Below, piece by piece: positions 54,001 to 60,000 of a stretch of 64,000 bases of DNA (the stretch's first letter is position 1; each line of letters starts with the position of its first letter). This DNA is from Perna viridis. Its lineage: Eukaryota. The DNA is taken from assembly GCA_037379345.1 (NCBI GenBank), contig CM074516.1, forward strand, positions 42,383,626 to 42,447,625, given 5' to 3'. A program made the position numbers.

Positions 54001-57000
54001 CATGCGAGGAACGTGGCATCTTCCCAACACGGTGCACCACTATGGTTTGCGGTGAGGTTTTCCGTATTATAGCCTGACAACTCCAGCATGTAACACATCA
54101 GGGTTTCTCCATTCTACCACCTGGGGCACACAACCCAGTTGCTCTGTGGGCAGAGTGCCCTAGCCCCCGGCTAAGGTTCTGAGCACTATTTAGTTGCCTT
54201 TTACGACAAGCTTAGCGCTGCTGCAGGCCTATTCTTTTGACACTCGGACCTGCCCAGGGTTCAACTCTTGTTGTAATGGGCTTATATCTACGGTAGATAG
54301 GAAGAAATTTTCTTTTGATGAGGTTTTCCATATATCAAGGACAACAAGTCTTTATTAGGCAGTCAAAATTATGTGCCATCTCCTTACAGAAGTTATTGTC
54401 CTAAGAGGTCATTTATTTTGATTTTTGTTGTGTTTGGCTTCTATATTAAAAAACATAATGGATAGAAATTAACTTTCAATTGATGAAATGTCCTTATGAA
54501 AAGAATTACAGAAGTTTCATTTCAGTTTAAGTTGTACAACAATTCTTTGAAACAGTTGAGAGGGTACGTGTGTCCATTTTAGTTATCATGAAGACTTAGA
54601 GAGTGTTGGTGCATGACATGTTCATACATCACACCTGGTAAGTGATCTAAAGGCTATATTTCTCAACAGATGAAATATGAAGCAAAGTTACTGCCATAAT
54701 CTCTCAAATAAGGTTGAAACTAACAATGTCTGGCAAATACCATGTATTATAAAGTTATTAGGTTTCTTCAAAATTTGTTTTGAAAGTTCTTCTACTTGTC
54801 AGGGAAGTTGTGGGTTCAATCAATGGCTGAGTCACATTATAGACTTACTTCAAAATGAGTACTCACTGCTTATCTACCAGGCCTGTGGTCAGAATTACGT
54901 GTCTGAATGGGATGACGTGTTTTCCCTTGGTGTGGCAGACAGGTACAAAGCAAGGTCTTACAAATACTTGCAATTTTCTGTTTTAGTGGCGACAGGATTT
55001 CCTACAGGACAGACACCATTAAAGACGAGACTTGAGGAGATCAGAACTGCTGTTGCTGATGGGGCTACTGAAATAGATATTGTTATCAACAGGGACTATG
55101 CATTGACTGGAAACTGGAGAGGTAATAAATACAAACAAAAGCAATAATGACATTGGTGATATTTCCACTGCACTAGCATCCTAAATGTCGAGTAATAATT
55201 TATTTTTGTGAAGAAAAGGTGTGAACAAAAAATAGTTTTAGCTTGGTGCACATGATACAATTTGTCTTATATGAGTTTTGTTCTATGTAACAAATATTCT
55301 CAAATCCATAGTAACAAAACCATGACCACACTTCAGAATCTAACTAATAAAGAAATATAACAAGACAAAGACAAATCAATCACCTCTTGACAGGCATCTG
55401 TGGTGGGGTTAAAGTAGTTCTATAAGGCTTTAACCATTGCCCTAAAATATAAGGTCAAAAATGAACTGAAACAACAAACACTCAATAATATATCCAATTC
55501 TCTCCATGAAATACCTCAATATACATCATATAAACAAAATGATATACCCACTTAAGAAAGCTCCCATTTACAGGAAACTAAAAAATAGTTAAAAGGGAAA
55601 ATGGTTGGTTTATAGTAAGTCTACATGTATGTTATGGGCATTATGATAAGAATGAATAATGTTCATGTTGTTTATAGTAATACATGTTGTATTTGACTAC
55701 AGGTGTTTATGATGAATACATGTCCATTTTGTTTATAGTAATACATGTTGTATTTGACTACAGGTGTTTATGATGAATACATGACCATGACCTTTATTAT
55801 AGTAATACGTGTTGTATTTGACTGCAGGTGTTTATGATGAATACATGTCCATGTTCTTTATAGTAATACATATTGTATTTGACTACAGGTGTTTATGATG
55901 AAAACATATTGTATTTGACTACAGGTGTTCATGATGAATACATGACCATGACCTTTATAGTAATACATGTTGTATTTGACTACAGGTGTTTATGATGAAT
56001 ACATGTTGTATTTGACTACAGGTGTTTATGATGAATACATGACCATGAACTTTATAGTAATACATATTGTATTTGACTACAGGTGTTCATGATGAATACA
56101 TGACCATGTTCTTTATAGTAATACATGTTGTATTTGACTACAGGTGTTCATGATGAAAACATGTCCATTTTGTTTATAGTAATACATGTTGTATTTGACT
56201 ACAAGTGTTTATGATGAATACATGACAATGACCTTTATAGTAATACATGTTGTATTTGACTACAGGTGTTTATGATGAATACATGTCCATGTTCTTTATA
56301 GTAATACATGTTGTATTTGACTACAGGTGTTCATGATGAAAACATGTCCATTTTGTTTATAGTAATACTTGTTGTATTTGACTACAAGTCTTTATGATGA
56401 ATACATGACCATGACCTTTATAGTAATACATGTTGTATTTGACTACAGGTGTTTATGATGAATACATGACCATGACCTTTATAGTAATACATGTTGTATT
56501 TGACTACAGGTGTTTATGATGAATACATGTCGTATTTAACTACAGATGATTATGATGAATACATGACCATGATCTTTATAGTAATACATGTTGTATTTGA
56601 CTACAAGTGTTAATGATGAATACATGTTGTATTTAACTACAGGTGTTAATGATGAATACATGTTGTATTTGACTACAGGTGTTTATGAAGAAGTTAAAGC
56701 CATGAGAGAAGCTTGTGGAGAGGCCCATCTGAAAACAATTTTAGCTACAGGGGAGCTTGGAAATATGGTTAATGTCTATAAAGCCAGTTTAGTCTGTATG
56801 ATGGCTGGTAGGTTTTAAATGGACTTACCTGTCAACATTGTCAGTTTAGTCTGTATGATGGCTGGTAGGTTTTAAATGGACTTACTTGTCAACATTGTCA
56901 GTTTAGTCTGTATGATGGCTGGTAGGTTTTAAAGTGGTTAATGTCTATAAAGCCAGTTTAGTCTGTATTATGGCAGGTAGGTTTTAAAGTGGTTAATGTC

Positions 57001-60000
57001 TATAAAGCCAGTTTAGTCTGTATGATGGCTGTATTGATTTAGTAAGGGATATTTGCATGGATATCTTTTGATTATTTGTTGGTGCAATAATTACAGATTA
57101 TTACTGATAGTACATATTGTTTAAAATCAATAATTAAGTTGAAATGCTATCCATGTGTTCTTGTGTCTTACGGATGTTATAGCATAATGCAAGCAAAATA
57201 TTGAAATGATTGTTAATCATGTTAATCATAAAACACAACTAACTCATATCTGTTACCGGGTAACCCTTTCTCATTGGGAGGTGATTGATTTTTGGGGTTT
57301 AATGTCCGAGCAGCAATATTTCAGCTATATTCAGACGATGAACATGAAAGTGGTGATAAAATGACCATGAATCGATGAATGAAAAAAGGGATGGGACACA
57401 AGGATAATGGGGTCGACAAATTTTGATTGCCACAAGATAAAAGGGGGATGGGTAGGGTTGGGCAATTTAGCCTCCTGTGGCGTAGCGCAAAGGTTCCTAC
57501 TCCATCAAATACCACAGCAGGGTTCTTTAACGTGCGAGGAACGTGGCATCTTTCCCAACATGGTGCACTACTATGGTTTGCAGTGAGGTTTTCCGTATTA
57601 TAGCCTGACAGCCCCAGCATGAAACACGCCAGGGGTACCCCATTCCACCACCTGGGGCACACATCCCAGTTGCTCTTTGGGCAGAGCGCCTAGCCCCCGG
57701 CTAGGTTTCTAAGCACTATTTAGTCGTCATTTACGACAAGCTTAGCGCTTCTGCAGGCCTATTCATTAGACACCCGGACCTGCATGGAGTGATTTTGTAA
57801 TATTAAAAATTCATTATTTAATATTTCAAAATATTGATTTTTGTCCACTTTAGCTTGCCATACACATGCAATTGCTCTACATGTCACAGTAATAATTAGG
57901 CAATAAACAACAAAGTTTTATTATGAAAATAATCAACACAAGGAACCACCACATGTTATGGAATTTCATTTAATATATGTTTAGTTTTGTTCCTATGCTT
58001 TTATTTCCATGTGTTAGTGTTCAAATTTTGTAACAAGTACATAAAAGCCTAAGAACAAAATATGACATTTATCAAAATAAAAAAATAAACAGTCAACAAA
58101 GTTTATCAGCATTAGTCTAGAAATAGATCTGGTGGGAATCATGGGGAGCTCCTTGATTTGGTTTGAGACCAAATCAGTTATGATTCATTATATATCATAT
58201 ATCTTGATTTCAAATTCATATATTTTAAACAAAACTGGAGCAAATATTGCAGACTTAATCCCATATTTTCAAGTCAAAATTTAAATCTCAAAAAGGCTAA
58301 CATCCAGGAGTTTCCGGGAGACTTTGCCCCCAGCCCTTCAACATCAAATTAAATTGCTTTATTTTAGTTTGATGTTTTGACATAGAATATGTTATGCACT
58401 TAAATGTATAATTTGTCTTTAGGTGCTGACTTCATAAAGACATCAACTGGTAAAGAAGGAGTAAATGCCATATTTCCTGTTGCCTTGGTGATGGTCAGGG
58501 CCATCAGGGAATTCTATCAAAGGACAGGTTACAAGGTTATTCTTGTTATAGATACCATATAGGGGAAATGGCTGACACAGAGAGATCAGTTACATGTCCC
58601 TATCAAATTATTTGAAATTTTGCAACCAGTAAAATATATTTTGGACATATCATACTGATACTATCATCACATGAAGGCTCATATCTCACCCTGTATTTCT
58701 TTATATTTTATGTACTAAGCATTCATAAGTTGTTTCAGACTTGAAATACCAACCAATATATGTTTTTCACTGATTAATTTGTGCACAACTTTTCTATTGA
58801 AAAACAATGCAATTGTCACTTGCATAAGCTGGGTTAGGTGTTTATTCCTTTACTGTGGGTTGACCATGCATGTTTCCGTCTGCCTGTAACTGTTGAATTA
58901 CTGCAGTCATTCAGTTGAATTATTCAGATTTGAAAATACCTTTAAAATATTTACTTTGTTTGTCAGGTTGGGTTTAAGCCAGCAGGAGGAATAAGAAGTG
59001 CCAAGGATGCCTGTACTTGGTTGATACTAATGAAAGAAGAACTTGGTAATGAATGGCTAAATGCCAAGATGTTTCGACTAGGTGCTAGCTCTCTCTTGAT
59101 TGACATAGAGCGACAGCTGTTTCATCAGGTTTATGGTCGCTATGCTGCAACACATGAAATTCCAATGTCATAGACAAAAGATACTGAAGAAATAAAAGTA
59201 TGGTTGTGAAATGTGTCATGTGTTGAGGAAGGTTGAGGCAGCACTTTACAACTGACCTAGTTTGTTGAATCTAGTCTTGTTGACAATCCATGAATTGAAA
59301 TAATATTATCTGGGTATAAAATCTCTTAATTGATATCAATTATGAATGCTGTGTAGTACTTGTATTGTTTTCTAACTTACCCCTGCAAAGTGTTTGTATC
59401 TTTTGTTGGGCACTTTATTGTATAAACCACTAACATTTTTTTTGTACCTGCAAGGCTTTATATCATTAGTCACTTAATTTTTTGTATCAGTAATTTCCTG
59501 ATTTAATGATGTCTGTTGAGATGCATCTCTCCGACACAAGAATTACTGTTCACCTGCTTTAATTATTTTAGTAGTTTTTATAAAAATCAGTCAGAAGGTG
59601 ATTCATGCATGTCAGAAACCCACCTAAGTCACTTTTATTTCTTTATCAGAACAGGTCATATAACCAGGTTTGTAATTCAGTTGTTGCACTGATGAGATAA
59701 AAACTATATACATGAAAATGTGAATGAAATTGGTACTTAGCAAGAGTTATCATTCTTGATTTTCTTTGATTTGGTTGAATCAGTGGGGAATGAATGCATG
59801 TTTTCTAAAAAATACAGATCAAAATGCAGAAAGGACTATCGTGACATGAAAATATAATATGTAGAACAACAAAGCATTATTTGTTCCATTGTTTTTTTTT
59901 ACAGTATGAATCTCCCCTACCATAGACAGTGTTATATATGGAATGGTTCCTAACTGTTAGATTGTTAAGGATTAAAAAATTGTCACTACATGTATTTGTT

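What the first reader, a model, noticed from the sequence alone, without database searches (positions are those of the whole stretch)
56766..57036. The same DERA exon is followed by an array of its own 5' splice site
Seen: atggctg|gtaggt recurs with GT at 56808 (productive), 56865, 56922 and 56977 (CAG|GTAGGT, closer to consensus than the real site), plus a partial copy at 57031. Reading past the first donor hits GGT AGG TTT TAA, so every distal donor yields a premature stop. Together with the acceptor array, only the innermost acceptor-donor pairs out of more than 60 combinations are productive. Two unrelated repeat units expanding on both edges of one 129-nt exon is hard to attribute to chance. 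Inference: a mutational process tied to exon boundaries, tolerated because exon definition favours the closest pair.
Basis: partly seen in the sequence, partly recalled or inferred. Interest (0 to 1): 0.7.

Follow-up and report, generated by a model that had tools for sequence, protein, structure and literature searches.

The report
Minisatellite that copies a splice donor
A short tandem repeat that starts inside a DERA exon and runs into the intron has copied the exon's splice donor several times; such boundary-spanning repeats are already known from lancelets ("mirages") and several human genes, so this is a clear but ordinary example.

Summary
GT donors sit at 56808, 56865 and 56922 (7 of 9 consensus matches), and at 56977 (8 of 9). 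A truncated fifth copy ends at 57031. They belong to a 57-nt, 4.8-copy array at 56765-57031. Each unit holds the last 22-43 nt of a 129-nt DERA exon plus the first 12 nt of the intron. Reading past donor 1 gives GGT AGG TTT TAA.

An older, unrelated 61/36-nt array (55652-56678) reiterates the acceptor 19 times, 16 with AG.

That only the exon-proximal sites are productive is geometry: a tandem duplication across a boundary leaves only the copy joined to the rest of the exon intact. The claim is also not exact. The -36 acceptor keeps the frame, and copy 4 is a 42-nt in-frame pseudo-exon.

This kind is in print: lancelet "mirages" and the human F7 intron 7 repeat, where only the most upstream donor is used (PMC3087553, PMC1557585).

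A boundary-linked mutational process is not shown. A third boundary-spanning duplication at 38181-38294 gives only a weak, count-dependent excess. No RNA, read or ortholog data were available.

The parts
56679..56807 (+). 129-nt DERA coding exon (phase 1 at both ends)
   Evidence: tblastn with E. coli DeoC: residues 119-162, 43% identity, E 3.4e-4, collinear with five other HSPs on the + strand. Pfam DeoC profile 111-134, but below cut-off (E 0.086). No PDB hit at E<=0.01 for this exon alone.
56765..57031 (+). Donor-side boundary-spanning minisatellite: 4 full units plus 1 truncated unit of 55-57 nt
   Evidence: TRF period 57, 4.8 copies, 88% matches. Family D5 with spacings 57, 57, 55, 55. 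The unit occurs nowhere else in the window.
56808..56809 (+). Productive donor GT (7 of 9 consensus matches), the only one continuous with the whole exon
   Evidence: Joining to 58423 restores the Gly codon before the ADFIKTSTGK motif.
56865..56978 (+). Three reiterated donors, GT at 56865 and 56922 (7 of 9) and at 56977 (8 of 9)
   Evidence: All lie downstream of the in-frame TAA at 56816-56818.
57010..57031 (+). Truncated fifth copy: 22 of 22 exon-end bases, no donor in register
56820..56842 (+). 23-nt intronic spacer of units 1 and 2 (second copy 56877-56899, 1 of 23 different); partly complementary to the exon end plus donor
   Evidence: RNA hairpin -18.3 kcal/mol, z -3.29, 1 of 200 shuffles as good; second copy -16.4, z -2.72. 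At DNA level the inverted match is 12 of 16 and not significant (242 of 2000 shuffles).
56935..56976 (+). Copy 4 as a potential 42-nt in-frame pseudo-exon (AG at 56933-34, donor at 56977)
   Evidence: Length is a multiple of 3. Translation of 56937-56975 has no stop. Use not tested.
55652..56678 (+). Acceptor-side boundary-spanning array: 61- and 36-nt units (97-nt higher-order period), each unit about 34 nt of intron end plus about 27 nt of exon start
   Evidence: TRF 14.2 copies, 82% matches; 97-nt period at 92%. 19 copies of the junction word, 16 with AG. The unit matches the first 27 nt of the exon at 20 positions.
58423..58535 (+). Next DERA exon, with the FIKTSTGK Schiff-base lysine motif
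   Evidence: 10 DERA chains in the PDB, best E 1.8e-4; tblastn.
38181..38294 (+). Separate instance in the neighbouring MICAL-like gene: 57-nt unit copied once, 30 nt of exon end plus donor plus 27 nt of intron
   Evidence: TRF 1.9 copies, 88%; 48 of 57 identical. Pfam bMERB profile 2-28 ends at 38209 and resumes at 34-61 from 38899, which fixes the intron position.

Best explanation
The donor array is a young minisatellite of the boundary-spanning kind.

What happened. A 55-57-nt segment was duplicated head to tail at least three or four times. It holds the last 22-43 nt of the DERA exon, the donor and the first 12 nt of the intron. In two units it also holds a 23-nt intronic spacer. The likely routes are replication slippage or unequal exchange.

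Why only one donor is productive. After any such duplication only the first copy stays joined to the rest of the exon. The productive donor is therefore necessarily the exon-proximal one. Every distal donor lies behind the intron's TAA.

The acceptor side. An older, unrelated 61/36-nt array did the mirror-image thing at the acceptor of the same exon.

Why the gene is expected to stay functional. The splicing machinery should prefer the exon-proximal sites, and nonsense-mediated decay should remove transcripts made from distal donors.

Shown: the arrays, their unit anatomy, copy identities, reading frames, exon identity, and the unrelatedness and different divergence of the two arrays.

Inferred: the duplication mechanism, the choice of the proximal sites, removal of mis-spliced RNA, and that the coincidence of the two arrays reflects local repeat instability rather than anything about exon boundaries.
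For: - Array anatomy and exact register of the copies.
- Copies 1-3 are identical over 34 nt, copy 4 differs at 2 of 34, and the spacers differ at 1 of 23. The array is therefore young or homogenised.
- The acceptor array is more diverged (82% matches, copies 61-96% identical to the reference) and has a 97-nt higher-order period.
- The units of the two arrays share no similarity beyond chance.
- Exon identity and boundaries come from homology, searched exon by exon.
- Stop codon after donor 1.
- The same architecture occurs at a MICAL-like exon in the same window.
- Another pair of unrelated arrays lies 477 nt apart at 6692-7740.
- Published precedents:
  - The F7 intron 7 37-bp repeat, plus IFI 6-16, CBS, LMNB2 and PDGF as listed in that paper's Introduction (PMC1557585).
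  - Lancelet mirages in Adh3, globin, TnC and PGBD5 genes at both 5' and 3' boundaries, with regular splicing undisturbed (PMC3087553; PMC3902484).
  - Tandem repeats at exon-intron boundaries of human genes (PMC2812944).
Against: - No transcript data exist, so use of the proximal donor is assumed from reading-frame conservation only.
- The predicted RNA structure pairs donors 1 and 2 with the 23-nt spacers. The local hairpins are -18.3 and -16.4 kcal/mol. In a 321-nt fold the energy is -90.4 kcal/mol, z -3.34, with 1 of 100 shuffles as good.
- Donors 3 and 4 are not buried in this way, and donor 4 has the best consensus match (8 of 9). On sequence alone the productive donor is therefore not the favoured one.
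- If arrays fell independently at the density seen elsewhere in the window (1.9% of bases), both edges of one 129-nt exon being hit would be rare.
- 3 of 8 arrays with units of 20 nt or more span a junction, against 0.2-0.5 expected.
Confidence: 0.72

Rival explanations
1. One reading: tandem duplications in this genome arise preferentially at exon-intron boundaries. Some process linked to transcription, splicing or chromatin would nucleate repeats at junctions.
For: - Three boundary-spanning arrays occur at two loci in 64 kb: 55652-56678, 56765-57031 and 38181-38294.
- With 8 arrays (unit >=20 nt, TRF score >=50) and 40-100 assumed junctions, P(>=3 spanning) is 0.0006-0.0095.
- The three units are of similar length (61, 57/55 and 57 nt), with the junction near the middle.
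- For lancelet mirages the authors call the generating mechanism unclear and suggest a general phenomenon (PMC3087553).
Against: - The excess is post hoc and fragile. Adding the 269-nt intronic duplication at 35534-36070 gives P 0.003-0.037.
- Counting all 11 local direct-repeat loci gives 0.04-0.28.
- Counting the DERA pair as one locus gives P(>=2) 0.014-0.60.
- The number of junctions was assumed, not measured.
- A 65-nt array of similar unit length lies at 6692-6975, where no gene was found. No splice motif was noted by eye in the printed consensus unit; this was not tested by a tool.
- The two DERA arrays differ in age and sequence.
Confidence: 0.13
2. The array is kept by selection as a regulatory device. 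Decoy donors and the donor-sequestering hairpin would tune productive against unproductive (decay-targeted) splicing of DERA, or extra U1 binding would help define the exon.
For: - The hairpin over donors 1 and 2 is stronger than shuffles (z -3.29 and -2.72; z -3.34 in context).
- The 9-mer in the spacer that is fully complementary to the donor consensus occurs once in the window, at 56823.
- Copy 4 carries the strongest donor and forms an in-frame 42-nt pseudo-exon.
Against: - Near-identity of the copies points to recent origin rather than long-term conservation.
- The inverted match is not significant at DNA level (242 of 2000 shuffles).
- In F7 no structure or auxiliary element was needed to explain silence of the pseudo-sites (PMC1557585, Discussion).
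- No cross-species or expression data could be obtained.
Confidence: 0.06
3. Assembly artefact: the repeats are over-expanded or mis-joined in the assembly and the real locus has one junction.
For: - Tandem arrays are error-prone in assemblies.
- For a lancelet globin mirage the draft genome version was reported as aberrantly assembled, and PGBD5 repeat numbers differed between assemblies (PMC3087553; PMC3902484).
Against: - The units are not uniform. There are two spacer types, a 2-base variant in copy 4, a 1-base variant between spacers and a truncated last unit.
- The acceptor array has 61-, 64- and 36-nt spacings and point variants.
- The window contains no N.
- Copy number could still be wrong even if the arrays are real.
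Confidence: 0.05

Closest known systems
[quoted passage not shown]
   Same: - Head-to-tail repeats whose units contain part of an exon, the splice site and part of the intron.
- Both 5' and 3' boundaries can be affected.
- Many units keep AG/GT signals.
- Units are 81-100% identical, with edge units excluded from homogenisation.
- Unit lengths overlap (Adh3 10-72 bp; PGBD5 60 and 108 bp).

Sources: PMC3087553 passages; PMC3902484 passages.
   Different: - The organism here is not determined. The window has about 32% G+C.
- Here one 129-nt exon carries unrelated arrays on both edges, and the acceptor array has 19 copies.
- Undisturbed splicing and length polymorphism, shown for mirages, could not be tested.
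- The founding paper (Canestro 2002, PMC117041) is not held, and the supplements with mirage alignments were closed.
Human F7 intron 7 37-bp VNTR, with the IFI 6-16, CBS intron 13, LMNB2 and PDGF intron 4 minisatellites
   Same: - The first monomer spans the exon-intron boundary, so the authentic donor is followed by identical pseudo-donors.
- Only the most upstream donor is used in F7.
- Stronger pseudo-sites (consensus value up to 91) do not compete. This parallels the better fourth donor here.

Source: PMC1557585; abstract, Introduction and Discussion read.
   Different: - The F7 monomer holds only 4 exon bases against 22-43 here.
- The F7 authors found no structure specific to the sites, whereas here donors 1 and 2 are predicted to be paired.
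- In 6-16 and CBS two pseudo-sites are also used, so silence of the copies is not guaranteed.
- The mammalian rules may not carry over to this invertebrate-like genome.
Internal tandem repeats at exon-intron boundaries of human genes in segmental duplications
   Same: Variable tandem repeats located at exon-intron boundaries that can change splicing patterns (PMC2812944, passages).
   Different: Those cases were picked because they created novel introns or alternative transcripts between paralogs. No such outcome is shown here.
[quoted passage not shown]
   Same: A local tandem duplication multiplies splice signals. Decay of unspliced forms is invoked as a buffer (PMC3443670 and PMC2891723, passages).
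   Different: - That model duplicates a segment inside an exon and makes a new intron.
- Here the duplicated segment spans an existing boundary and no new intron is evident.
- Copy 4 as an in-frame pseudo-exon is only a possible first step.
- Gao and Lynch 2009 (PMC2791625) is not held.

Membership tests
Boundary-spanning minisatellite (mirage / F7-type) | Head-to-tail tandem array of two or more units | tested here: met
   TRF period 57, 4.8 copies; spacings 57, 57, 55, 55.
Boundary-spanning minisatellite (mirage / F7-type) | The exon-proximal unit contains the exon-intron boundary, so the splice site is reiterated in the intron | tested here: met
   Unit 1 runs from 56765 in the exon across the donor at 56808. 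The junction word recurs at 56857, 56914 and 56969.
Boundary-spanning minisatellite (mirage / F7-type) | The boundary belongs to a genuine coding exon | tested here: met
   Collinear tblastn HSPs to E. coli DeoC. The next exon hits 10 DERA structures. The focal exon alone is weak: Pfam E 0.086 and no PDB hit.
Boundary-spanning minisatellite (mirage / F7-type) | Authentic site used, reiterated sites silent or minor in transcripts | not testable with these tools
   No RNA data for this genome in any tool.
Boundary-spanning minisatellite (mirage / F7-type) | Copy-number polymorphism or instability between haplotypes | not testable with these tools
   One sequence only; no reads and no eukaryotic collection.
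Boundary-spanning minisatellite (mirage / F7-type) | Internal units homogenised, edge units diverged | tested here: inconclusive
   Copies 1-3 are identical over 34 nt and the last copy is truncated and diverges. With only five units, of two spacer types, this is not decisive.
Intron gain by tandem duplication of an exonic proto-splice site | The duplicated segment lies within an exon and the copies of AGGT become the ends of a new intron | tested here: not met
   The unit spans an existing exon-intron boundary; no new intron is evident.
Regulated unproductive splicing element | Conservation across species and regulated use of the stop-introducing sites | not testable with these tools
   No orthologous sequences or expression data were available.

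The most novel reading that the evidence does not exclude
In this genome, which is apparently not a lancelet given its 32% G+C, mirage-type duplications arise at exon-intron boundaries more often than chance allows. They would reflect a boundary-linked duplication process with a preferred unit of about 55-61 nt centred on the junction. The DERA exon would be a doubly hit example. The donor-sequestering spacer would be part of how the array is tolerated or exploited.
Probability: 0.12. Interest if true: 0.65.

Novelty: new member of a known kind. Interest (0 to 1): 0.35.

Why it matters
Boundary-spanning minisatellites are natural experiments in splice-site choice. Identical or better sites compete at increasing distance from one exon.

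This locus offers three things together on one short exon of a conserved enzyme gene:
- 16 competing acceptors and 4 competing donors;
- a predicted hairpin over the productive donor;
- an in-frame pseudo-exon.

It would be a compact test bed for exon-definition or scanning rules outside mammals.

Two loci in one 64-kb window also suggest that the mirage phenomenon may be frequent in this genome. Its mechanism is called unclear in the lancelet literature, and a genome-wide test would be feasible here.

As it stands it adds an example, not a principle.

Tried and rejected
- **Common origin of the two arrays.** Rejected: the units show no similarity beyond shuffles in either orientation.
- **The 23-nt spacer as an inverted copy of the exon end (fold-back duplication).** The match is 12 of 16, and 242 of 2000 shuffles scored as well, so this is not supported at DNA level. 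The repeat finder listed no inverted pair there.
- **The 23-nt spacer as a diverged copy of the exon-derived spacer.** Not supported (1617 of 2000 shuffles).
- **A dispersed element carrying the repeats.** Both junction words occur only inside their own arrays.
- **RNA genes.** Rfam at gathering thresholds and ARAGORN found nothing in the window.
- **tblastn hits in the acceptor array.** Hits of DeoC residues 101-110 there (E 46, repeated 8 times) are a chance word multiplied by the array.
- **The 269-nt duplication at 35534-36070.** It looked junction-linked but starts about 60 nt inside the intron.
- **Papers not held.** Gao and Lynch 2009 and Canestro 2002. One search failed on term syntax and was re-sent.
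- **Literature on doubly flanked exons.** Searches returned no report of one exon flanked on both edges by unrelated boundary-spanning arrays. The globin paper does state that both boundaries can be duplicated.
- **Not used, as irrelevant to a eukaryotic locus:** the bacterial and archaeal genome collection, the phage and plasmid collections, structure prediction and complex prediction.
- The search for homologous proteins, the search of protein representatives, metagenome and viral contigs, and paper supplements.
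Full report
**Scope and limits.** I do not take this window for human. It has 31-34% G+C throughout. It carries an intact 348-residue Tc1/mariner-type transposase frame. It holds a compact MICAL-like gene followed by a roughly 6-kb DERA gene. The organism was not determined.

The spliced gene models were searched exon by exon. The joined step, a search with exons spliced together, was left out. 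No eukaryotic genome, read or transcript collection was available. Orthologous introns, raw-read support and actual splicing therefore stayed unchecked. Paper supplements were closed, and the lancelet papers' additional files with repeat alignments may bear on the comparison.

**The observation.**
- The exon is 56679-56807, 129 nt, with AG at 56677-78 and GT at 56808-09.
- It translates to a 42-residue stretch. This aligns with E. coli DeoC residues 119-162 at 43% identity (E 3.4e-4 against the window). It lies in order with five other + strand matches at 53234, 53633 (weak, E 0.26), 54971, 58410 and 58967.
- Alone, the exon is only a sub-threshold Pfam DeoC match (E 0.086). It finds no solved structure at E<=0.01.
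- The next exon (from 58423) carries the FIKTSTGK motif and hits 10 deoxyribose-phosphate aldolase chains (best E 1.8e-4).
- Four GT sites in 56760-57060 match the donor consensus at 6 or more of 9 positions: 56808, 56865 and 56922 (7 of 9) and 56977 (8 of 9).
- A 20-nt junction word occurs 4 times in the window against 0.00 expected.
- The fifth copy keeps 22 of 22 exon bases and then diverges. Its GT at 57031 is one base out of register.
- Read-through from 56807 gives Gly-Arg-Phe-stop.

**Anatomy of the donor array.** TRF gives 56765-57031, period 57, 4.8 copies, 88% matches. The units are of two types.
- Units 1-2 are 57 nt: a 22-nt exon end, the donor with 12 nt of intron, then a 23-nt intronic spacer.
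- Units 3-4 are 55 nt: the spacer is replaced by a copy of the preceding 20-21 nt of the exon, so 42-43 exon bases are copied.
- The 34 nt of exon end plus donor are identical in copies 1-3 and differ at 2 of 34 in copy 4. The two spacers differ at 1 of 23.

At least three or four duplication events are needed. They are recent, or the copies are being homogenised.

**The acceptor side.**
- 55652-56678 holds 19 copies of the acceptor junction word, 16 with AG at the homologous place. Spacings are 61, 64 or 36 nt, with a 97-nt higher-order period.
- The unit matches the first 27 nt of the exon at 20 positions, so it too spans the boundary.
- It is more diverged than the donor array (82% matches).
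- It shares nothing with the donor unit: 874 and 1166 of 2000 shuffles scored as well.

**How much of the pattern needs explaining.** A tandem duplication of a segment that crosses a boundary leaves exactly one copy contiguous with the rest of the exon. That is the first copy on the donor side and the last on the acceptor side. That the innermost pair is the productive one is therefore a consequence of geometry, not evidence of selection or of a special process.

The claim is also not exact. Of 16 x 4 = 64 pairs, the native pair keeps an open frame, and so does the pair using the acceptor 36 nt upstream, which adds 12 residues. Copy 4 (56935-56976) is a 42-nt in-frame segment between an AG and the strongest donor.

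**Chance.**
- The window has 12 distinct arrays at TRF score >=50. Eight have units of 20 nt or more.
- Three of those eight span a junction. The third is a 57-nt unit copied once at the donor of a MICAL-like bMERB exon (38181-38294, 48 of 57 identical). That intron position is fixed by Pfam profile coordinates on the two flanking exons.
- Random placement with 40-100 assumed junctions gives 0.2-0.5 expected and P(>=3) of 0.0006-0.0095.
- Adding the 269-nt intronic duplication at 35534-36070 raises P to 0.003-0.037.
- Counting all 11 local direct-repeat loci gives 0.04-0.28.
- Treating the two DERA arrays as one locus gives P(>=2) of 0.014-0.60.
- Arrays also cluster away from the two genes found here: 6692-6975 and 7452-7740 are unrelated and 477 nt apart.

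The excess is suggestive, post hoc and not robust.

**A wrinkle.** The 23-nt spacer is partly complementary to the exon end plus donor.
- Donors 1 and 2 are predicted to sit in hairpins of -18.3 and -16.4 kcal/mol (z -3.29 and -2.72; 1 and 2 of 200 shuffles as good).
- Donors 3 and 4 give -10.6 and -9.8 kcal/mol (z about -1.1).
- In a 321-nt fold, donors 1 and 2 again pair with the spacers (z -3.34).
- The 9-mer complementary to the donor consensus occurs once in the window, at 56823.
- At DNA level the inverted match is not significant.

On sequence alone the productive donor is thus not the favoured one. This is the main evidence against simple tolerance.

**Comparison with what is known.** Two bodies of work describe this kind.
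- **Human F7 intron 7.** It has a 37-bp minisatellite whose first monomer spans the boundary. Five to nine identical donors result, and only the most upstream is used. Pseudo-sites with consensus value up to 91 do not compete. The same paper lists IFI 6-16, CBS, LMNB2 and PDGF. In two of these a few pseudo-sites are also used (PMC1557585; abstract, Introduction and Discussion read).
- **Lancelet mirages.** Such repeats occur at 3' and 5' boundaries in Adh3, globin, TnC and PGBD5 genes, with regular splicing undisturbed. The authors call the mechanism unclear (PMC3087553, passages; PMC3902484, passages).
- **Related.** Tandem repeats at exon-intron boundaries of human paralogs (PMC2812944, passages), and intron gain by tandem duplication (PMC3443670 and PMC2891723, passages).

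Searches returned no report of one exon flanked on both edges by unrelated arrays.

**Verdict.** The thing is a boundary-spanning minisatellite, a new member of a known kind. The boundary-linked mutational process is not shown.

Noticed in passing
window 38181-38294: A 57-nt unit copied once across the donor of a MICAL-like bMERB exon: 30 nt of exon plus 27 nt of intron, 48 of 57 identical. The copied donor matches the consensus at 5 of 9 against 6 of 9 for the real one.
   Followed up: yes
window 56641-56678: The acceptor copy 36 nt upstream of the real one keeps the reading frame with no stop and would insert 12 residues. The copy 72 nt upstream also keeps the frame but has AA in place of AG.
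   Followed up: yes
window 56935-56976: Copy 4 of the donor array is a 42-nt in-frame segment between an AG and the strongest donor. As a cassette it would repeat 14 residues of the enzyme. Whether it is ever used is unknown.
   Followed up: partly
window 56800-56842 and 56857-56899: The 23-nt spacer after donors 1 and 2 pairs with the donor in predicted RNA hairpins (-18.3 and -16.4 kcal/mol). It contains, once in the window, the 9-mer fully complementary to the donor consensus. From recall, this equals the 5' end of U1 snRNA.
   Followed up: partly
window 55652-56678, 56765-57031, 38181-38294: The three boundary-spanning units are of similar length (61, 57/55 and 57 nt), with the junction near the middle of the unit. 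A 65-nt array lies at 6692-6975, where no gene was found. Unexplained; it may just be the preferred minisatellite size here.
   Followed up: no
window 35534-36070: A tandem duplication of about 269 nt, missed by TRF, starts about 60 nt inside the intron that follows a giant open frame. That frame is 32661-35531, 957 residues, with no Pfam match.
   Followed up: partly
window 28551-29594: An uninterrupted 348-residue Tc1/mariner-type transposase frame (DDE_3, HTH_Tnp_Tc3_2) lies inside the MICAL-like gene on the same strand.
   Followed up: partly
window 6692-6975 and 7452-7740: Two unrelated minisatellites (65-nt and 36-nt units) lie 477 nt apart, upstream of the two genes found in the window. 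This shows that arrays cluster locally.
   Followed up: no
window 352-618 and 60559-60825; 53809-54039 and 57324-57689: Two pairs of dispersed repeat copies are visible as near-identical open frames. One pair lies at the window's ends. The other lies on the minus strand in two DERA introns. The families were not identified.
   Followed up: no
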